From NCBI GenBank assembly GCA_964352325.1, contig CAYGRQ010000001.1:1-36629 (forward strand): 36,629 nt of DNA. The letters run 5' to 3'. Origin of the DNA: an uncultured Pseudomonadales bacterium. Lineage in GTDB: Bacteria; Patescibacteriota; Microgenomatia; UBA1400; MFAQ01. The notes under the pieces are model-generated. The model saw nothing but the letters and a program-made list of their open reading frames with translations, made no database searches and was not told the origin of the DNA. The translations under genes and the position numbers were made by a program. Of this stretch, positions 11,445 through 23,947 are shown piece by piece (the stretch's first letter is position 1; each line of letters opens with the position of its first letter).

Positions 11445-11469
11445 CCTGCAGGGTCTGACCCCGTAGGTG
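11445..11469 (+). repeat. REP-like 25-mer, left copy
   Basis: CCTGCAGGGTCTGACCCCGTAGGTG is identical to 12138-12162. It is an imperfect palindrome CCTGCAGGG-TCTGA-CCCCGTAGG (7 Watson-Crick pairs, 1 G.T, 1 mismatch). It ends 1 nt before the Y1-transposase ORF. Confidence 0.9.
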
Positions 11470-11470
11470 A

Positions 11471-12136
11471 TTGGGGTGCTATGCTGGAGTAGAAGTGCCT
11501 GGCAAAAACATAATCAAGATTTACGATGAAAACGGTTATTATCATATTTACAATCGTGGAGTGGAGAAACGGAATATCTTTCTTGATCAGCAGGACCATT
11601 CGGTATTTCTTTCGTATCTGATGATATATTTGTCACCCGTTGATCAAAATCAAAAAATTTCTCCTTCGAAGAGGCTTAAAAACTATTTTGGAATTGTTGA
11701 CCTGCTTTGTTATTGCCTAATGCCCAATCACTTTCATCTACTGATAAAGCAACATGTTTCTACGGGGATTGCTGATTTTGTCCAATCAGTCTCGACGAAG
11801 TATGCGATGTATTTTAATAAGAAATATCAAAGGTCCGGACATCTCTTTCAGGGAGCCTATCGGGCGGTAACGATTGATTCTGAAGCCCAATTGCTCCAGT
11901 TGTCTCGTTATATTCATCGTAACCCCGACCCTGCAAGGTCTGACCCTGCAGGTTTGCTGGAGTATCGATATTCGAGCCTACCGATTTATCTAGGGAAATT
12001 TAATCAGTCGTGGGTTAGAAACCAGGAGATATCGTGCTTATTTTCTAAAGGTGACGTTCTAAATTCGTACAAATCATTTGTGCTCGAGTCCGTGGATCTC
12101 TCGGACATGAGTTCTCTGTTGATTGATTACGATTAG
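11471..12136 (+). CDS. REP-associated / IS200-like Y1 (HUH) tyrosine transposase homolog
   Basis: YYHIYNRGVEKRNIF, the HUH motif in CLMPNHFHLLIKQ, and a catalytic-Tyr region LSRYIHRNP...YRYSS. The start is uncertain: TTG 11471 in the track, or GTG 11495 as an alternative. Confidence 0.8.
   Translation: MGCYAGVEVPGKNIIKIYDENGYYHIYNRGVEKRNIFLDQQDHSVFLSYLMIYLSPVDQNQKISPSKRLKNYFGIVDLLCYCLMPNHFHLLIKQHVSTGIADFVQSVSTKYAMYFNKKYQRSGHLFQGAYRAVTIDSEAQLLQLSRYIHRNPDPARSDPAGLLEYRYSSLPIYLGKFNQSWVRNQEISCLFSKGDVLNSYKSFVLESVDLSDMSSLLIDYD
11930..11952 (+). repeat. REP-like palindrome embedded in frame in the transposase CDS
   Basis: CCTGCAAGG-TCTGA-CCCTGCAGG pairs at 8 of 9 positions. It encodes PARSDPAG directly after YIHRNPD. 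Confidence 0.75.
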
Positions 12137-12137
12137 G

Positions 12138-12162
12138 CCTGCAGGGTCTGACCCCGTAGGTG
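12138..12162 (+). repeat. REP-like 25-mer, right copy
   Basis: Identical to 11445-11469. It fills the gap between the transposase stop (12134-12136) and the convergent ftsZ stop (12163-12165), leaving only nt 12137 before it. Confidence 0.9.
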
Positions 12163-13362
12163 TTACTGGCGCTTGCGGAGGAAGGTGGGAATGTCGAGGT
12201 CGTCTTCGATCGTAACCTCGCGGTGCTTGATATGTAGTCTATCCCTCAAGCTGATTGGTTGTTCCGCGGAAATCTCCTCGACGGCGGGCTCGAGGGCCAA
12301 CTCGGGCGCCTCTTCCTCAGCAAACTCTGCCGGTTCTGGCTGGGCGGCTGGGCGGGAGAAGTAATTAGGGTTAACGCGGCTAACGAAACTTTGCATCCGG
12401 CGGCGGTTTTCATCGAAGCCAGTAGCGATGACGGAAATCTTGATGTCCTCACCCAGATCTTCTCTGATGGTGGCACCAAAAATAATGTTGGCGTCGGGAT
12501 CGGCGGCGGCGGAGATGATATTGGCGGCATCATTGACCTCGTTCATGGTCAGGCTTTTGCCGGCGCTGATATTAAAGAGAATGCCGCGGGCGCCATCGAT
12601 ACTAATTTCCAGCAGCGGCGAGCTGACGGCTTGTTTGGCGGCGGTGACGGCGCGCTTGTCGCCGCTGGCGGTTCCGATACCCATGAGGGCAGAACCGGCG
12701 TTACACATAACTGTCTTGACGTCGGCGAAATCGACGTTGATCAGCCCTGGAATGGTGATCAGATCAGAAATACTTTGGACACCCTGAGAAAGAACCGAGT
12801 CGGCCATTCGGAAAGCATTAAGAAGGGTGTCTTCTTTTCTGATGACATCGAGAATTCTTTGGTTAGGAATGACGATCAAGGTGTCGACTTCTTTTTTCAG
12901 TTTTTCGATCCCCTCTTCGGCCTGGACCATGCGCCGGGTACCTTCAAAAAGAAATGGTTTGGTGACGACGGCGACGGTGAGGGCGCCGACTTCTTTGGCG
13001 ACGGAGGCGATGATCGGAGCGGCGCCGCTACCGGTTCCTCCACCTTCACCGGCAGTGATGAAAACCATGTCGGTGCCGGCAAGCAGATCGCGGATTTTGT
13101 CGCGGCTTTCTTCGGCAGCGGCTTGACCGATTTCCGGATTGGCACCCGACCCCAGACCCTTGGTGACCCGCTCACCAATTTGGAGTTTGATATCGGCGTT
13201 GTTGGCCAACAGCGCCTGGAGGTCGGTATTGATGGCGATGAACTCAACACCCTGGATCTTGCTATCGGAAATCATGGAATTGAGGGCATTGTTTCCCCCA
13301 CCGCCGACACCGAGAACTTTGATCTTGGCAAATGAATTAATATCAGGTTTGACTAAAGCCAT
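12163..13362 (-). CDS. ftsZ: Cell division protein FtsZ
   Basis: [26 protein letters not shown], and the C-terminal peptide [13 protein letters not shown]. Confidence 0.97.
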
Positions 13363-21023: not shown

Positions 21024-21870
21024 TTGGTTTTAGTGGTTTAACGTTAATAACGCGGAGGATGCTTGTCTTTTTCTTTTCTTTGATGAAGCGCTTGACGAGT
21101 CGGTCTTCGCCGGAGTGGAAACTGATTACCCCCAAGATGCCGCCTTGGGCGAGTAAATTCGGCGTCGCGGCGAGCATGTCCCGAAGGGCTTCCCGTTCGA
21201 GATTGACGGCCATACGCAAAGCCATGAAAGTCTTGGTGGCGGGGTGAATTTTTTTGGCCGTCGGCCGCTTTGCCTGACTCACGATTTCGGCCAGTTCACT
21301 TGTGGTTGTGACTGGAGCATTTTTTCTGGCCCGAGCGATAGCCCGAGCGATTATTTTGGCTTGGTATTCATCGGCCAAAAGGAACAACTCTGCCAATTCT
21401 CTTTCAGAAAGGGCATTGACCAGGTCGGCGGCGGACAGACCAAGGCGTTGATCGAGGCGCATATCGAGCGGGCCCTCCAGGTTGAAACTGAAGCCTCTTG
21501 GCGCCTCTGCTAACTGATATTGGGAAGTCCCCAGATCGGCAAGAATGGCCTTGAAGAGGGGCAGGTTGAGTTGGGCCGCTACTTCTCCCGCTTTGGCAAA
21601 ATTGGTGTGAACGATGAGCCAGGTGAAGTCGGCCGGTGGTGCAATGGCCATTTCCGGGCGGACAATGATGGGCGTGTATTTGCCGGAGAGGAAGTTGGTG
21701 GCCCGACTGATTGCCTGCTCATCGACATCAAAGCTGACGACCCGGGCGCCGGCATCAAGGGCTTCCTGGGTGTGTCCCCCGTCACCAAGGGTGAGATCTA
21801 GGAACAGATCCCCGGGCTGGAGGTGAAAAAGGTCCTTTATTTGACCGGCAAAGGCGGGTAGATGTCTCAT
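20956..21870 (-). CDS. rsmH: 16S rRNA (cytosine1402-N4)-methyltransferase
   Basis: DLTLGDGGHT, ADLGTSQYQL, ISFHSGEDRLVK and C-terminal NPKVRSAKLRLAQK. ATG 21870 forms an ATGA overlap with the mraZ stop. Confidence 0.92.
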   Translation of the reverse strand: MRHLPAFAGQIKDLFHLQPGDLFLDLTLGDGGHTQEALDAGARVVSFDVDEQAISRATNFLSGKYTPIIVRPEMAIAPPADFTWLIVHTNFAKAGEVAAQLNLPLFKAILADLGTSQYQLAEAPRGFSFNLEGPLDMRLDQRLGLSAADLVNALSERELAELFLLADEYQAKIIARAIARARKNAPVTTTSELAEIVSQAKRPTAKKIHPATKTFMALRMAVNLEREALRDMLAATPNLLAQGGILGVISFHSGEDRLVKRFIKEKKKTSILRVINVKPLKPNEKELQINPKVRSAKLRLAQKI

Positions 21871-22298
21871 ATGTTTAAATCTTTTAGTCCCGATTCCCAA
21901 TCGGGATTTTCCTGCGTTACTAAGTTAAGGTGCTGGTGATAGCGGTCACGATCCCAGATTTCAATTCTGGTTAGGGCGCCGGCGATCACCACTTGTTTTT
22001 TTAGTGAAGCGCTTTCCTTTAAGTAGTCCGGGATTAAGGTCCTCCCCTGTGAGTCGAGAACCAGATCCACGGCTGATTGAACCAAGACCCTGGTAAATTG
22101 ACGGCCGGTCCGGTTCGTCAGGGGTAGGGACGCCAGCTTGCTGCAGAGCTCTTGCCAATATGAGTTGGGGAAAAGAAATAGGCAGCCATCCAGCCCGATG
22201 GTGATGACGCCACCAGATGTTAGTTTTTCGCGGAATACCGCCGGAATCGCCAACCTCCCCTTGGCTTCGAGGTTGTGATAATGGCGAGAGATAAACAT
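21867..22298 (-). CDS. mraZ: Transcriptional regulator MraZ
   Basis: MFISRHYHNLEAKGRLAIPAVFREKL, with the second SpoVT/AbrB-like half DSQGRTLIPDYL. Confidence 0.93.
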   Translation of the reverse strand: MFISRHYHNLEAKGRLAIPAVFREKLTSGGVITIGLDGCLFLFPNSYWQELCSKLASLPLTNRTGRQFTRVLVQSAVDLVLDSQGRTLIPDYLKESASLKKQVVIAGALTRIEIWDRDRYHQHLNLVTQENPDWESGLKDLNI

Positions 22299-22330
22299 AG
22301 TGCATAGGACAGGTTTGGTAACTAGTTACT

Positions 22331-22361
22331 ATTATAATGGTAATTCACCACTTGTCACCAC
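22331..22361 (-). promoter_or_regulatory. Candidate mraZ/dcw promoter with tandem GTGGTGA boxes
   Basis: The minus strand reads GTGGTGAcaaGTGGTGAattaccatTATAAT. The two 7-mers are exactly 10 bp apart, and the upstream one contains a -35-like GTGACA 16 nt upstream of TATAAT. A 12-bp palindrome GTAACTAGTTAC follows the -10. Confidence 0.45.
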
Positions 22362-22377
22362 CCCCCAGTATCGTGAA

Positions 22378-22479
22378 AAGAAACTGCCCTGTCAAGGGGT
22401 AACCCGAGGCTAAAAAGGAGTTTATTTGATGAGGACGATGGGGCCGAGAAGGTAGAGCTGGGCCGTTTCGGCTTCCCCT
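22378..22479 (+). repeat. 102-bp direct repeat, copy A1 (non-coding relic of the lipoprotein gene 3' end)
   Basis: By my base-by-base comparison it is identical at 102 of 102 positions to 23079-23180. It contains the last 58 nt of the lipoprotein CDS plus 44 nt downstream, but here it is cut off from any ORF by an in-frame TAA in the adjacent B1 repeat. Confidence 0.9.
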
Positions 22480-22483
22480 CCCG

Positions 22484-22537
22484 ACTTACCCAATTAGTAC
22501 GGGAAAACGATTACTCGTGGTCAATTTACATGGGATA
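22484..22537 (+). repeat. 54-bp direct repeat, copy B1
   Basis: ACTTACCCAATTAGTACGGGAAAACGATTACTCGTGGTCAATTTACATGGGATA matches 22980-23033 at 53/54 positions (one A/G difference). Confidence 0.88.
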
Positions 22538-22548
22538 CGTCCTTCTTT

Positions 22549-22588
22549 GTCATCCCGACCAAGCGTACTCGCGAGTGGAGGGATCTTC
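22549..22588. repeat. 40-bp inverted repeat, left arm
   Basis: GTCATCCCGACCAAGCGTACTCGCGAGTGGAGGGATCTTC is the reverse complement of 22924-22963 at 39/40 positions. It contains the internal palindrome ACTCGCGAGT and ATCCC...GGGAT pairing. Confidence 0.88.
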
Positions 22589-22618
22589 CTAGACTGCATA
22601 GCCTACAATTAACATTAG

Positions 22619-22918
22619 ATGATTCGAAGTCAGAGATACTTCTTCGTATATATCTTAAGTAATTTCAAACGAAACGTCCTTTATACAGGCATCACCAGCA
22701 ACTTGCTCCGTCGTGTTTGGGAACATAAGGAGGGGGTTGTGGAAGGATTTACAAATGATTATCAAGTTCACGACCTCCTCTACTTTGAAACATACGATGA
22801 TCCTCAAACAGCTATCGCCAGAGAAAAACAAATTAAGAAATGGTCCAGAAGAAAGAAAAATGTGCTCATCGCAAAACAAAATCCAACACTAAAGGATCTT
22901 TATCCAACCCTTGTTTAG
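22619..22918 (+). CDS. GIY-YIG nuclease family protein (URI/YhbQ-like, 99 aa)
   Basis: YFFVYILSNFKRNVLYTGITSNLLRRVWEHKEG...YFETYDDPQTAIAREKQIKKWSRRKK is the canonical GIY-YIG core (GIY / YxG / R..EH / E). It is one of the few plus-strand genes and the only one in the right-hand 24 kb. Confidence 0.85.
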   Translation: MIRSQRYFFVYILSNFKRNVLYTGITSNLLRRVWEHKEGVVEGFTNDYQVHDLLYFETYDDPQTAIAREKQIKKWSRRKKNVLIAKQNPTLKDLYPTLV

Positions 22919-22923
22919 ACCCC

Positions 22924-22963
22924 GAAGATCCCTCCACTCGCGAGTACGCTCGGTCGGGATGAC
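22924..22963. repeat. 40-bp inverted repeat, right arm
   Basis: GAAGATCCCTCCACTCGCGAGTACGCTCGGTCGGGATGAC starts 5 nt after the GIY-YIG stop. Confidence 0.88.
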
Positions 22964-22979
22964 ATGGTCTTTTTCCCCA

Positions 22980-23033
22980 ACTTACCCAATTAGTACGGGG
23001 AAACGATTACTCGTGGTCAATTTACATGGGATA
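22980..23033 (+). repeat. 54-bp direct repeat, copy B2
   Basis: 53/54 identical to B1 (22484-22537). Confidence 0.88.
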
Positions 23034-23078
23034 TATCAATTACCTAGTTTTCAGTGTTGGTAGTTTGGGTAAGTCGGG

Positions 23079-23180
23079 AAGAAACTGCCCTGTCAAGGGG
23101 TAACCCGAGGCTAAAAAGGAGTTTATTTGATGAGGACGATGGGGCCGAGAAGGTAGAGCTGGGCCGTTTCGGCTTCCCCT
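23079..23180 (+). repeat. 102-bp direct repeat, copy A2 (functional 3' end of the lipoprotein gene plus downstream flank)
   Basis: Identical to 22378-22479. It overlaps CDS 23123-23947 over 23123-23180. Confidence 0.9.
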
Positions 23181-23947
23181 TTGAGGTCGTCGCGAACAAT
23201 GTTGGCGGCTTTGTTCCAGGGAAGTTGGTTGAGGCTGACTTCAACTGAGTCAGCCGTGATATTGACCTTGAGCGGTTGGAAGTTGGCCCCGTCGTAGATC
23301 AGGACCGATTTAACTCCCGAGACTCTAAAAGTCAGCTGGCCGCTAATTTTCGCATCACCAACGGCACTAATGGCAATCGGGGCATAGGCCAACTCGCCTT
23401 CGATCGCCTTGGGTAGTCCTTGAGTGTCCAAAAGAATTTGGTCTTTTTGTTTGGCACTACTTGGGGTATAAGTGACCCGCCCATCGGTAGTAGTTACCTC
23501 GCCCTTGACGACGAAAACAAAATCGCTTTTGAGGACGTTCATGACATCACTGCCGTCATCGAGTTTGTTCTTGATGGTGCCGGAAATGAGGTCGGTATCA
23601 AAGGAACATTTACCTCCGGAAGAGCAACTGCCGAGCAGAAAAGCTTGAGCGTAGGGAAGGCTTTTAGGAAAATCGATGGTGGTCCGACCCCCCTTGAGGG
23701 AGTTGCCAGAGAGATATTCGAGATCAACGGATGACTGTTTGTACTTGGTGTCAACCCGATCGAGATAGATGGTCAGGAGTTTACCGGTAGTGTGGGGAAA
23801 GACAACCAGAAAGGGGCGCTCCCCCACCGGCAGAGCGTTGATTAGTTGGCGGGGCTGTTTGGTGGTCTGACTAGGACCAGCTTTTTTTGCTCCGCAGGCG
23901 GATAACAGCAGGGCGGCGCCAAGGATAAGACCAAATTTTTTAAACAT
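23123..23947 (-). CDS. Lipoprotein of unknown function
   Basis: MFKKFGLILGAALLLSAC has a lipobox (LSAC) after a signal peptide. The rest has no recognisable motif. Confidence 0.7.
   Translation of the reverse strand: MFKKFGLILGAALLLSACGAKKAGPSQTTKQPRQLINALPVGERPFLVVFPHTTGKLLTIYLDRVDTKYKQSSVDLEYLSGNSLKGGRTTIDFPKSLPYAQAFLLGSCSSGGKCSFDTDLISGTIKNKLDDGSDVMNVLKSDFVFVVKGEVTTTDGRVTYTPSSAKQKDQILLDTQGLPKAIEGELAYAPIAISAVGDAKISGQLTFRVSGVKSVLIYDGANFQPLKVNITADSVEVSLNQLPWNKAANIVRDDLKGEAETAQLYLLGPIVLIK

What the first reader, a model, noticed from the sequence alone, without database searches (positions are those of the whole stretch)
22378..23180. GIY-YIG gene inside three concentric repeat layers, wedged between the lipoprotein gene and the mraZ promoter
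Hand alignment shows an onion-like architecture.
- Innermost: the 300-nt GIY-YIG ORF (22619-22918, antisense to all neighbours) is flanked by 40-bp inverted repeats (22549-22588 and 22924-22963, 39/40).
- Middle: this unit is flanked by 54-bp direct repeats (B1 22484-22537, B2 22980-23033, 53/54).
- Outer: the whole 599-bp block ends in exact 13-bp terminal inverted repeats, CCCGACTTACCCA and TGGGTAAGTCGGG.
- Flanks: the block is bounded by a perfect 102-bp direct duplication (22378-22479 = 23079-23180).

The 102-bp duplication carries the last 58 nt of the lipoprotein CDS plus 44 nt of downstream flank. The gene therefore stays intact at A2, while A1 is a dead relic sitting directly upstream of the dcw promoter.

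One reading is two successive insertions. First, a ~103-bp TIR-bounded MITE-like unit (B plus the 32-nt tail plus the TIR). Then a GIY-YIG cassette entered it, each step with an unusually long target duplication (102 bp and 54 bp).

Small URI/YhbQ-type GIY-YIG proteins are normally annotated as housekeeping-like 'nuclease family proteins' rather than as cargo of a repeat-bounded element. No transposase or integrase is present, so the GIY-YIG protein itself would be the only candidate mobility enzyme.
Basis: partly seen in the sequence, partly recalled or inferred. Interest (0 to 1): 0.8.

Follow-up and report, generated by a model that had tools for sequence, protein, structure and literature searches.

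The report
Ssn nuclease cassette with nested duplications
A tiny gene for a single-strand DNA-cutting enzyme, bracketed by its own hairpin recognition sites, was inserted next to the cell-division operon of a groundwater bacterium. It copied 58 and 102 bases of its targets in the process, and the same long-duplication scar flanks related cassettes in other bacteria, so these cassettes probably move.

Summary

**What it is**
- The 99-aa GIY-YIG gene and its 41-nt inverted repeats form an Ssn cassette of the published family (Chenal et al. 2025, PMC11893778). That family is a single-domain nuclease that cuts single-stranded DNA, and its gene is flanked by its own hairpin target motifs (SRM/NTS).
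- It is not a YhbQ/UPF0213-type housekeeping gene.

**Evidence that it was inserted**
- Three relatives have the lipoprotein gene running straight into mraZ, with a single A copy. The 701 bp (599-bp block plus one A) is therefore a lineage-specific gain.
- Cassettes 83-86% identical in DNA sit in three other gene contexts. Homology stops at the outer SRM ends.

**The new point**
- Seven other ssnA loci from unrelated bacteria, out of about 128 testable, are also flanked by direct duplications of host sequence of 16-203 nt.
- These duplications often rebuild a host gene end. Only 1 of 198 shifted control windows shows the same.
- The long "target duplications" are therefore a recurrent insertion scar. 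I found no report of it.

**Not supported or unresolved**
- The 58-nt B unit has no copy in any collection searched, so there is no evidence of a MITE family.
- The order of the two events is unresolved. The cassette plus B probably arrived as one piece.
- The mechanism is inferred, not shown.

The parts
22378..22479 (.). A1: relic copy of the 102-nt target duplication. It holds a dead copy of the last 58 nt of the lipoprotein CDS plus 44 nt, and it supplies the TTGACA hexamer upstream of mraZ.
   Evidence: Perfect direct repeat with 23079-23180. Colinear with the left flank in the empty sites of relatives. Promoter-like TTGACA-17-GATACT at 22395..22367 straddles its left edge.
22480..22537 (.). 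B1: left copy of the 58-nt inner direct repeat. Its first 14 nt (22480-22493) are the left terminal inverted repeat of the 599-bp block.
   Evidence: 56/58 identical to 22976-23033. Terminal repeat confirmed. No copy in any collection searched.
22538..22547 (.). Left spacer, pyrimidine-rich (CGTCCTTCTT), between B1 and the left SRM. It is part of the 438-nt cassette.
   Evidence: Read from the sequence. Comparable spacers of 8-16 nt lie between the duplication and the SRM at L096, L103 and L155 and on the left of L056; other junctions are wider.
22548..22588 (+). Left SRM: the hairpin-type recognition motif of the Ssn nuclease (T-GTCAT-CCC...GGG-ATC-TTC), in the cleavable orientation on the + strand.
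   Evidence: 41-nt inverted repeat, 40/41. GTCAT...ATC frame as in the published NTS CGTCATTCCCGCGMAVGCGGGAATCYRG. Same position relative to the gene as in 25 of 80 homologous loci. Homology with L011, L192 and L193 starts here; in L194, which has a different short left SRM, it starts about 55 nt further in.
22604..22609 (+). TACAAT, a -10-like box 9 nt before the ATG. It is probably the cassette's own promoter, giving a near-leaderless mRNA.
   Evidence: Conserved as TACAAT or TATAAT at the same distance in L011, L192 and L194. Function is inferred.
22619..22918 (+). ssnA-like gene: a 99-aa single-domain GIY-YIG nuclease of the Ssn family.
   Evidence: Pfam PF01541. Conserved Y11, G24, R32, H36, E69 and N88. 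pN/pS about 0.09 against cassettes in other genomes. 41.9% identical (E 4e-16) to the N. gonorrhoeae gene that sits among canonical NTS repeats.
22924..22964 (-). Right SRM, the inverted copy, in the cleavable orientation on the - strand.
   Evidence: Homology with L011 and L194 ends here.
22965..22975 (.). Right spacer (TGGTCTTTTTC) between the right SRM and B2.
   Evidence: Read from the sequence.
22976..23033 (.). B2: right copy of the 58-nt inner direct repeat.
23034..23064 (.). 31-nt tail of unknown origin.
   Evidence: No Rfam match below E = 1, no tRNA, no repeat elsewhere in the window.
23065..23078 (.). Right terminal inverted repeat (TTGGGTAAGTCGGG) of the 599-bp block.
   Evidence: It pairs with 22480-22493 in the single-strand fold.
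23079..23180 (.). A2: the working copy of the 102-nt duplication. It carries the true 3' end of the lipoprotein gene.
   Evidence: The lipoprotein ORF 23123-23947 (-) reads through it.
23123..23947 (-). Host lipoprotein gene (lipobox LLSAC), kept intact by A2.
   Evidence: Orthologues at 70-96% identity are syntenic with glyS and mraZ.
22331..22358 (-). Best mraZ promoter match (GTGACA-16-TATAAT), outside the duplication and untouched by the insertion.
   Evidence: Conserved in L025 and L026.
21867..22298 (-). mraZ, first gene of the division and cell-wall cluster downstream of the insertion.
   Evidence: Pfam MraZ, E 1e-28.

Best explanation
**What it is.** The core (22538-22975, 438 nt) is an Ssn cassette: a 99-aa GIY-YIG nuclease gene (ssnA-like) bracketed by two inverted copies of its own hairpin recognition motif (SRM). 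By homology with the characterised Neisseria, Wolbachia and other enzymes, the protein should bind the SRM hairpin only in single-stranded DNA and cut a few bases 5' of it. Because the two SRMs are inverted, each strand of the cassette has one cleavable site just outside its 5' end.

**How it got here.** The cassette is a mobile, or at least repeatedly inserted, unit. Each insertion duplicates a stretch of the target of variable length, often long.
- An earlier insertion into a sequence called M here (B + 31-nt tail + right terminal repeat, 103 nt) duplicated 58 nt (B).
- The whole 599-bp composite then entered the lipoprotein-mraZ spacer of this Collierbacteria-like groundwater lineage and duplicated 102 nt (A).
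- The A duplication is what lets the insertion be tolerated. A2 keeps the lipoprotein gene complete, and A1 keeps the sequence upstream of the mraZ promoter.

**Inferred mechanism (not shown).**
- Ssn nicks the exposed single strand at the cassette ends.
- The free ends prime or redirect DNA synthesis, by nick-primed copying or template switching, into a single-stranded gap elsewhere.
- The two junctions land some tens to about 200 nt apart, so the stretch between them is copied twice.
- Only duplicating outcomes survive next to needed genes.
- The flanking direct repeats would also allow precise loss by recombination.
For: **Membership in the Ssn family**
- Pfam GIY-YIG only, 99 aa, with the conserved motif residues intact.
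- SRM-like GTCAT...ATC hairpins lie 70 nt before the start codon on the + strand and 6 nt after the stop on the - strand. This is the geometry seen in 25 of 80 homologous loci.
- 24 homologous loci carry the Neisseria-type NTS core, and 8 carry the full published consensus.
- The N. gonorrhoeae homologue (41.9% identity, E 4e-16) is embedded in NTS repeats.
- Family properties are taken from PMC11893778.

**Insertion**
- Empty sites in L025, L031 and L026.
- Insert GC is 0.39-0.44, against 0.48-0.55 in the flanks.

**The cassette as a unit**
- It is 83-86% identical in DNA in four unrelated contexts. Homology ends at the outer SRM ends wherever the two cassettes share that SRM type.
- pN/pS is about 0.09.
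- The two arms of each cassette match each other but differ between cassettes at three positions.

**A recurrent scar**
- Host-derived direct duplications flank cassettes of 378-499 nt at seven other loci:
  - L096, 203 nt: the 3' end of a gene plus a terminator-like hairpin.
  - L056, 116 nt: the first 116 nt of pheT.
  - L103, 76 nt: the 3' end of an ABC ATPase gene.
  - L155, 72 nt.
  - L140, 28 nt.
  - L048, 20 nt.
  - L049, 16 nt.
- Counting the window, that is 9 of 129 loci against 1 of 198 shifted controls (p = 0.0013). Without the window it is 8 of 128 (p = 0.003).
- The copies at L103 and L155 are 8-9% diverged, so they cannot be assembly artefacts.

**Order of events**
- The inner insert is 438 nt, within the 378-499 nt range of the other cassettes.
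- B1 and B2 differ at two positions in every strain. A1 and A2 have no fixed difference.
Against: - No second copy of the cassette, of an SRM or of M exists in the 36.6-kb window. Nothing shows movement within this genome.
- No empty-site contig was found in the Hainich population itself.
- Most homologous loci (about 93%) show no host duplication. None of 14 finished replicons from cultured isolates does. The scar could therefore be occasional rather than obligatory.
- The published SRM search pattern does not match the window's arms, because the loop is too long.
- The arms fold only weakly on their own (z about -0.7 to -0.9).
- The published enzyme needs an SRM to cut. The targets carry none, and the duplication edges share no motif or microhomology. 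Target breakage by Ssn is therefore unsupported.
- GIY-YIG enzymes do not join DNA, so host functions must complete any insertion.
- The exact 14-nt terminal repeat at the ends of the 599-bp block is not explained by a cassette-plus-passenger model. It hints that M is a discrete entity.
- The left end of B coincides exactly with the left end of the block, which neither order of events explains.
Confidence: 0.6

Rival explanations
1. A 103-bp MITE-like element bounded by terminal inverted repeats (B + tail + right repeat) inserted first and made the 102-nt duplication. The GIY-YIG cassette then inserted into it at this locus and made the 58-nt duplication.
For: - The 599-bp block ends in an exact 14-nt terminal inverted repeat. 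The motif CCCRACTTACCCAA sits at all three junctions: A1|B1, cassette|B2 and right repeat|A2.
- The inner insert (438 nt) is a typical cassette size.
Against: - M has no copy in GTDB genomes, JGI metagenomes, IMG/VR or the window.
- M has no SRM, so a 102-nt duplication would need a second, unrelated element with the same unusual scar.
- B1 and B2 have two differences fixed in all strains, and A1 and A2 have none. This suggests B is the older duplication, but weakly (p = 0.13).
Confidence: 0.22
2. One complex replication error. A stalled or broken fork switched templates several times in a single event: target A, then M, then the cassette, then M again, then a snap-back copy giving the terminal repeat, then back to A. 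The Ssn protein played no direct part, and the duplications are ordinary template-switch scars.
For: - Insertions flanked by duplications of arbitrary length are the classical outcome of serial template switching (established knowledge).
- The duplication edges show no target motif, and the spacers between duplication and SRM vary in length.
- The strong inverted repeats form a long panhandle in single-stranded DNA (z = -9), the kind of structure that stalls forks.
Against: - Recurrence specifically around Ssn cassettes in unrelated phyla, against 1 of 198 control windows, argues for a cassette-linked cause.
- B and A differ in identity, which is not expected if both arose at the same moment.
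- No microhomology at the junctions.
Confidence: 0.12
3. A domesticated, immobile Ssn gene. The cassette reached this locus once by transformation and illegitimate or homology-assisted recombination. It now serves a host function, for example restricting incoming single-stranded DNA as in Neisseria. The duplications are accidents kept because they preserve gene ends.
For: - Chenal et al. show a host-level role in transformation and propose domestication.
- There is strong purifying selection on the protein.
- Only one copy is seen, and no SRM expansion occurs in the window.
- Isolate genomes show no host duplications.
Against: - Closely related cassettes occupy four unrelated contexts with sharp common boundaries.
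- Duplication-flanked cassettes recur in several phyla.
- Selection can retain duplications but does not create them.
Confidence: 0.2
4. An assembly artefact. The chromosome has one A copy and no insert. A separate small molecule or a strain variant carrying A + X creates a loop in the assembly graph, and every assembler walks it once.
For: - Several contigs break inside or at the edge of A (L022-L024, L030).
- A (102 nt) is longer than the overlaps of about 31-56 nt at which those contigs break. I infer that it would collapse in the assembly graph.
Against: - Seven assemblies from four wells give the same path.
- L006 has a SNP in A1 only.
- Analogous duplications elsewhere are 2-9% diverged (L096, L103, L155), which no graph loop produces.
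- A free 701-bp replicon is implausible.
Confidence: 0.04

Closest known systems
Ssn / SsnA site-specific single-stranded DNA nucleases with flanking NTS/SRM hairpin repeats (Chenal et al., Nat Commun 2025, PMC11893778)
   Same: - Single-domain GIY-YIG protein of about 95-100 aa.
- The gene is bracketed by inverted hairpin motifs with a GTCAT...ATC frame.
- The homologues include the Neisseria locus, and the motif sits at the same positions relative to the gene.
   Different: - The arms here are 41 nt with a longer loop, and they miss the published degenerate pattern.
- The cassette is solitary, with no expansion of the motif in the window.
- The host is a candidate-phyla (Patescibacteria) bacterium; the word Patescibacteria does not occur in the paper's main text.
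- The paper suggests only that the architecture resembles an insertion sequence. It does not use the term 'target site', and in the sections read it reports no empty sites or movement.
REP / RAYT (REPIN) systems and IS200/IS605
   Same: A small nuclease gene flanked by inverted hairpin repeats that the enzyme recognises in single-stranded DNA. The repeats may spread through the genome. No conventional DDE transposase is present.
   Different: - Those enzymes are HUH tyrosine transposases that form covalent intermediates and rejoin DNA. A GIY-YIG enzyme only hydrolyses.
- IS200/IS605 leave no target duplication. Here the duplications are 16-203 nt.
Penelope-like elements and non-LTR retrotransposons
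   Same: Penelope-like elements use a GIY-YIG nuclease. Both groups give target duplications of variable and sometimes long size, because the two strand breaks are not coupled (established knowledge).
   Different: They are eukaryotic retroelements with reverse transcriptase and an RNA intermediate. Nothing of the kind is encoded here.
GIY-YIG homing endonuclease genes (for example I-TevI, free-standing phage endonucleases)
   Same: A selfish GIY-YIG nuclease gene that spreads between genomes.
   Different: - Homing enzymes carry a separate DNA-binding domain, cut double-stranded DNA at one conserved site, and leave no duplication.
- Here the sites differ at every locus.
UPF0213 / YhbQ small GIY-YIG proteins
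   Same: Similar size and fold.
   Different: Only a marginal sequence match to BH0048 (1ZG2, E 2.8e-4). No NCBIfam family match. I am not aware of flanking SRMs being described for that family.
MITEs, for example Correia elements of Neisseria
   Same: The 103-nt B + tail + right-repeat unit has 14-nt terminal inverted repeats and MITE-like size.
   Different: No other copy was found anywhere. The flanking duplication is 102 nt, not the 2-10 nt typical of MITEs.

Membership tests
Ssn (SsnA, cd10448) single-stranded DNA nucleases | Single-domain GIY-YIG protein of about 90-100 aa with intact catalytic motifs | tested here: met
   99 aa. Pfam PF01541 covers residues 8-80 and there is no other domain. 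Y11, G24, R32, H36, E69 and N88 are invariant among 36 homologues.
Ssn (SsnA, cd10448) single-stranded DNA nucleases | Gene flanked on both sides by inverted hairpin motifs (SRM) of 20-50 nt | tested here: met
   41-nt arms, 40/41, with a GTCAT...ATC frame. The + copy starts 70 nt before the start codon and the - copy 6 nt after the stop, as in 25 of 80 homologous loci. Stem bases covary between loci, for example ATCCC/GGGAT, ATTCCC/GGGAAT and ATTGC/GCAAT.
Ssn (SsnA, cd10448) single-stranded DNA nucleases | Match to the published degenerate SRM pattern HGTCWYN(0-2)YYVSBRHN(0-5)WNVSBRGN(0-2)RNCYNB | tested here: not met
   No match in the window. The loop between the stem halves is about 21 nt, and the pattern allows at most 5. 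The pattern also misses most homologous loci: it finds at least one SRM in 19 of 80, against 37 of 80 with a hairpin-based rule.
Ssn (SsnA, cd10448) single-stranded DNA nucleases | Homology to the Neisseria SsnA clade | tested here: met
   tblastn hit to the N. gonorrhoeae chromosome, 41.9% identity over residues 10-95, E 4e-16. The gene there lies among CGTCATTCCCGCGCAGGCGGGAATC repeats. 24 loci with homologues at 48-58% identity carry the NTS core.
Ssn (SsnA, cd10448) single-stranded DNA nucleases | Assignment to CDD model cd10448 | not testable with these tools
   No CDD library is available here.
Ssn (SsnA, cd10448) single-stranded DNA nucleases | Cuts only single-stranded DNA, just 5' of its own SRM | not testable with these tools
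   This needs purified protein and oligonucleotide substrates.
Insertion sequence / autonomous transposon | Defined ends plus flanking target duplication, with an empty site in relatives | tested here: met
   Empty sites in L025, L031 and L026. Common boundaries at the SRM ends in four contexts. Duplications at nine junction pairs. Their length varies from 16 to 203 nt, unlike any known IS family.
Insertion sequence / autonomous transposon | Encodes a recognised transposase (DDE, HUH, serine or tyrosine) | tested here: not met
   The only ORF is the GIY-YIG nuclease. No PHROG or PADLOC match.
Insertion sequence / autonomous transposon | Several copies per genome, or presence/absence polymorphism within a population | tested here: inconclusive
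   One copy in the 36.6-kb window. The rest of the genome is not available. All Hainich contigs that span the site are filled.
MITE (for the 103-nt B + tail + right-repeat unit) | Terminal inverted repeats | tested here: met
   14 nt exact against B1, 13/14 against B2.
MITE (for the 103-nt B + tail + right-repeat unit) | A multi-copy family | tested here: not met
   No match for a 19-mer from B in GTDB genomes, JGI metagenomes or IMG/VR. No further copy of the terminal repeat in the window, even with 2 mismatches allowed. This organism's own genome is apparently not in those collections.
GIY-YIG homing endonuclease gene | Separate DNA-binding domain and one conserved homing site | tested here: not met
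   A single domain. Insertion sites differ at every locus.
UPF0213 / YhbQ | Significant sequence match to family members | tested here: not met
   Best solved-structure match is 1ZG2 at 24 bits, E 2.8e-4. No NCBIfam family match.

The most novel reading that the evidence does not exclude
Ssn cassettes (SRM-ssnA-SRM, about 0.4 kb) would be a new class of autonomous bacterial mobile element. They would be the smallest known. Their only protein would be a hairpin-specific single-strand nuclease that cannot rejoin DNA. They would insert by nick-primed or template-switch copying into single-stranded gaps, leaving target duplications of variable and often very long size (16-203 nt). Successive moves could carry old duplications along as nested layers, as in this window.
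Probability: 0.35. Interest if true: 0.85.

Novelty: new variant of a known kind. Interest (0 to 1): 0.62.

Why it matters
The Ssn family was described in 2025 as the first site-specific nucleases that cut only single-stranded DNA. Its authors left open whether the repeat-gene-repeat unit is a mobile element.

- **What this locus adds.** It is a filled site with empty sites in relatives. Near-identical cassettes sit in four contexts. Seven further loci carry long host duplications. Together this is, to my knowledge, the first comparative evidence that the unit inserts as a block, and that it leaves a scar unlike that of any known bacterial transposon.
- **If confirmed.** It would point to a way of moving DNA that needs only a nicking enzyme and the host's replication or repair machinery.
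- **Annotation.** It would explain odd duplicated gene ends in annotated genomes.
- **Biotechnology.** It bears on the proposed use of these enzymes as tools.
- **Locally.** The insertion lies directly upstream of the promoter of the division and cell-wall operon. The duplication appears to be what keeps both neighbours functional.

Tried and rejected
- **Rfam.** At the gathering threshold on the whole window, and at E up to 10 on 22300-23250, only chance-level hits.
- **tRNA or tmRNA in the block.** None.
- **Protein family libraries.** NCBIfam, PHROGs and PADLOC gave no family for the protein.
- **Solved structures.** Only a marginal UPF0213 match, so the YhbQ assignment was dropped.
- **Published SRM pattern.** No match in the window. 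I used a hairpin-based rule and the NTS core instead.
- **Single-strand folding of individual arms and of the 103-nt unit.** Not better than shuffles. The strong fold of the whole block follows from the inverted repeats themselves and adds nothing independent.
- **B-unit 19-mer scans.** Nothing in genome, metagenome or viral collections.
- **Protein-guided scans of GTDB genomes and JGI metagenomes.** Close relatives had to come from exact-protein look-ups.
- **Empty site within the Hainich population.** Look-ups by the exact GIY-YIG and MraZ proteins found only filled or broken contigs.
- **Fourteen finished replicons from cultured bacteria.** SRM flanks are present but there is no host duplication.
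- **Direct repeats set aside.** Many repeats around homologues are SRM arrays or mosaic repeat elements, not target duplications (L067, L071, L064, L084, L095, L213). They were excluded from the count.
- **Target motif, junction microhomology and terminal repeats at the other inserts.** None found.
- **Considered and rejected.**
  - Integrase-type att-site duplication: no integrase is present.
  - Campbell-type integration of a circle: the circle would already need a copy of A.
  - A fixed regulatory region: refuted by the empty sites.
Full report
**1.

Reading 22100-23500 and running the repeat finder gave the following.
- A perfect 102-nt direct repeat, A1 22378-22479 = A2 23079-23180.
- A 58-nt direct repeat, B1 22480-22537 and B2 22976-23033, 56/58 identical.
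- A 41-nt inverted repeat, 22548-22588 / 22924-22964, 40/41.
- A 14-nt exact terminal inverted repeat at the ends of the 599-bp block 22480-23078.

The ORF 22619-22918 (+) encodes 99 aa with a Pfam GIY-YIG domain (E 3e-15). It is antisense to its neighbours on the minus strand: glyS, a lipoprotein gene (23123-23947, lipobox LLSAC), mraZ (21867-22298), rsmH, ftsL and ftsI. A2 holds the last 58 nt of the lipoprotein CDS plus 44 nt. None of the repeats recurs elsewhere in the window. The insert has lower G+C (0.39-0.44) than its flanks (0.48-0.55).

**2. Origin and assembly**

The exact protein is on 14 contigs, all from Hainich groundwater metagenomes and all at this locus. Seven separately assembled contigs from four wells carry the full architecture. 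One (L006) has a SNP in A1 only.

Other contigs break inside or at the edge of A, as expected for a 102-nt repeat. These assemblies share the same graph topology, so they do not fully replace read-level proof. An artefact is nevertheless very unlikely (see section 6).

**3. It is an insertion**

Orthologues of the lipoprotein identify the organism as a Collierbacteria-like member of the Patescibacteria.
- In three relatives (L025 and L031 at 86% lipoprotein identity, L026 at 78%) the lipoprotein gene is followed directly by mraZ, with a spacer of 175-185 nt.
- A reconstructed empty site (left flank + one A + right flank) aligns colinearly with them across the 22377/22378 junction.
- The 599-bp block plus one A copy is therefore a lineage-specific gain.
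- More distant relatives (L027-L029) carry a GGDEF gene in the same spacer.
- The best mraZ promoter match (GTGACA-16-TATAAT, 22358..22331) lies outside A. A second match (TTGACA-17-GATACT, 22395..22367) straddles the left edge of A1. A1 therefore preserves the native upstream context of mraZ, and A2 preserves the lipoprotein reading frame.

**4. What the gene and its inverted repeats are**

A literature search led to Chenal et al. 2025 (PMC11893778). They describe the following.
- Ssn proteins are single-domain GIY-YIG nucleases of about 94 aa (CDD cd10448).
- They bind a hairpin motif (NTS in Neisseria, SRM in general) only in single-stranded DNA, and they cut just upstream of it.
- With the SRM pattern, 71% of homologues have at least one motif nearby and 42% have motifs on both sides. 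The motifs are described as 20-50-nt inverted repeats.
- The authors remark that NTS-ssnA-NTS looks like an insertion sequence and suggest domestication. In the sections I read they report no movement and no empty sites, and the term 'target site' does not occur in the main text.

The window's arms read T-GTCAT-CCC...GGG-ATC-TTC. This is the frame of the NTS consensus CGTCATTCCCGCGMAVGCGGGAATCYRG, but with a longer loop, so the published degenerate pattern does not match them.

Membership rests on the following.
- **Geometry.** In 80 homologous loci from GTDB genomes of many phyla, 25 have a GTCWY hairpin upstream on the + strand (28-182 nt before the start, mostly 28-77) and another downstream on the - strand (6-31 nt after the stop). 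The window's positions are 70 nt before and 6 nt after.
- **Canonical motifs next to homologues.** 24 loci carry the Neisseria-type core, and 8 carry the full consensus.
- **Direct homology to Neisseria.** The protein is 41.9% identical (E 4e-16) to the N. gonorrhoeae gene that lies among NTS repeats.
- **Covariation.** Stem bases covary between loci.

**5. The cassette behaves as a unit**

Proteins 90-91% identical occur in three other contexts:
- L011, after a KH-domain protein gene of the rpsP cluster;
- L192 and L193, next to an EamA transporter gene;
- L194, after a LytR-family gene.

DNA identity to the window is 83-86%. Homology starts and stops at the outer SRM ends wherever the two cassettes share that SRM type; in L194, which has a different short left SRM, it starts about 55 nt further in.

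Synonymous divergence is about 0.53-0.55 but pN/pS is about 0.09. The protein is therefore under strong constraint in all hosts. Between the window and L011 the SRM differs at three positions, and each change is mirrored in both arms. The arms are thus kept matched within a cassette. A TACAAT box 9 nt before the ATG is conserved, which suggests that the cassette carries its own promoter.

**6. Long host duplications are a recurrent scar**

I compared the two flanks of 129 homologous loci.
- 44 share an exact direct repeat of 14 nt or more. The figure is 0 of 253 for permuted flank pairs and 4 of 198 for windows shifted by 1.5 kb.
- Most of these repeats are SRM copies or mosaic repeat elements, and I set them aside.
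- Nine are plain host sequence, listed in the table.

| Locus | Duplication | What is duplicated |
|---|---|---|
| Window, A | 102 nt | 3' end of the lipoprotein gene plus 44 nt |
| Window, B | 58 nt | First 58 nt of M |
| L096 | 203 nt, 98% | Last 83 nt of a gene plus a terminator-like hairpin |
| L056 | 116 nt, 99% | First 116 nt of pheT |
| L103 | 76 nt, 91% | 3' end of an ABC ATPase gene |
| L155 | 72 nt, 92% | 3' end of a membrane-protein gene |
| L140 | 28 nt | Start of the downstream gene |
| L048 | 20 nt | 3' end of the upstream gene |
| L049 | 16 nt | Intergenic |

- Against one non-SRM case in 198 controls this gives p = 0.0013, or 0.003 without the window.
- The DNA between the duplications is 378-499 nt in these other cases and 438 nt for the window's B level.
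- The gap between duplication and SRM is 8-16 nt at seven of the ten junctions of the five longest-duplication cases, and up to about 77 nt elsewhere.
- I found no shared motif at the duplication edges, no junction microhomology, and no terminal repeat apart from the window's outer layer.
- The duplications at L103 and L155 are 8-9% diverged, so they are old and real.
- Fourteen finished replicons from cultured bacteria have SRM-flanked genes but no host duplication. One sits between sufB and sufC, another between MmeI and DrmA. This fits a frequency of about 7%, but it means that all positive cases come from metagenome assemblies.
- I found no paper in the library that reports this scar.

**7. 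Reading the onion**

The B level has the size and layout of an ordinary cassette insertion. What remains is M (B + 31-nt tail + right terminal repeat, 103 nt) and the A duplication.

Evidence on the order of events:
- B1 and B2 differ at two positions in every Hainich strain.
- A1 and A2 have no fixed difference.
- One strain shares a variant at the last base of both A copies.

This favours B being older, so the cassette with its old duplication and 45 nt of former flank would have entered the present site as one 599-bp piece. The counts are small (p = 0.13).

Two facts remain unexplained by any model:
- The block ends in an exact 14-nt inverted repeat.
- The left edge of B coincides with the left end of the block.

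M may be a discrete hairpin-ended entity. Alternatively, the right terminal repeat may be a snap-back copy made during insertion. M has no copy in any collection searched. This organism's own genome seems to be absent from those collections.

**8. Mechanism**

*Shown or published.* The family's enzymes cut single-stranded DNA 5' of the SRM and not its complement. With inverted SRMs, each strand of the cassette therefore has its one cleavable site just outside its 5' end.

*Inferred.*
- Such cuts, made on the exposed lagging-strand template or on transforming DNA, create ends that prime or redirect synthesis.
- The two junctions with a new target form independently within a single-stranded gap.
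- When the second junction lands behind the first, the interval is duplicated. This would explain the broad spread of lengths up to about 200 nt and the lack of a target motif.
- Insertions that delete rather than duplicate would be lost next to needed genes. This could explain why the surviving duplications so often rebuild gene ends.

GIY-YIG enzymes do not ligate, so host polymerase and ligase must finish the job. A purely host-driven template-switch accident provoked by the strong palindrome is the main mechanistic rival.

**9. Verdict**

The innermost layer is a known kind of system. The insertion evidence and the recurrent long duplications go beyond what is published, and they make the mobility question testable. 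Its interpretation is partly right: an insertion with long duplications, and the nuclease as the only encoded enzyme. It is partly wrong: the family assignment, the novelty of repeat-bounded GIY-YIG genes, the MITE family, and probably the order of events.

Noticed in passing
window 23189-23267 (inside the lipoprotein gene, starting 9 nt beyond A2): Two sharply different alleles of an ~80-nt segment circulate among the Hainich strains, with 17-21 SNPs and 8 amino-acid changes (VNITADSVEVSLNQLPWNKA versus ADISTDSVKITLNQLPWNKV). The rest of the 10 kb differs by about 1 SNP per kb. The tract is mosaic: L002 carries a shorter version. In L005 it reaches the last base of A2, and A1 carries the same base. 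It may be a recombination tract next to the insertion, or diversifying selection on a surface protein. Chenal et al. note raised diversity of genes next to NTS/dRS3 repeats.
   Followed up: partly
window 22345-22361 (minus strand GTGGTGA ... GTGGTGA): Two copies of GTGGTGA spaced 10 nt apart overlap the -35 hexamer of the best mraZ promoter match. They are conserved in relatives L025 and L026. They look like MraZ operator boxes (autoregulation).
   Followed up: no
L207 (Azospirillum lipoferum 4B plasmid AZO_p3) and L209 (Planktothrix agardhii plasmid p1): In finished genomes of cultured bacteria, SRM-flanked ssnA homologues sit inside functional gene clusters. One lies between sufB and sufC of the Fe-S assembly operon. 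Another lies between the MmeI restriction enzyme gene and drmA of a DISARM defence system.
   Followed up: partly
L061 1239-1811; L130 668-1415; L040 4193-5006: Some control windows 1.5 kb from ssnA homologues also show long direct repeats. In L061, 125-nt repeats (96%) flank a 323-nt segment with an ORF that looks like a small secreted protein. L130 and L040 hold repeats that contain SRM-like motifs but no ssnA gene.
   Followed up: partly
L194 2400-2840 and L192 600-700: Within one cassette the two SRMs can be of different types. One is short (GTCATCCCGAGCGAAGTCGAGGGATC) and one long (GTCATCCCGACCGAGGGTATTCCCGAGTGGAGGGATC). L192 has one of each in tandem downstream of the gene. This suggests that SRM variants are exchanged or duplicated between cassettes.
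   Followed up: no
L027-L029 (relatives at 70% lipoprotein identity): The same lipoprotein-mraZ spacer holds a 217-aa GGDEF-domain gene in more distant relatives. This spacer has accepted foreign or extra genes more than once.
   Followed up: no
window 11445-12173: Three copies of a 36-nt unit (CCTGCAGGGTCTGACCCCGTAGGTG...) lie 485 and 208 nt apart. They are probably a repeated module within a coding region.
   Followed up: no
L195-L205 (IMG/VR viral contigs): Eleven viral or proviral contigs encode homologues of the nuclease at 42-51% identity. Phages could therefore carry these cassettes between hosts.
   Followed up: no
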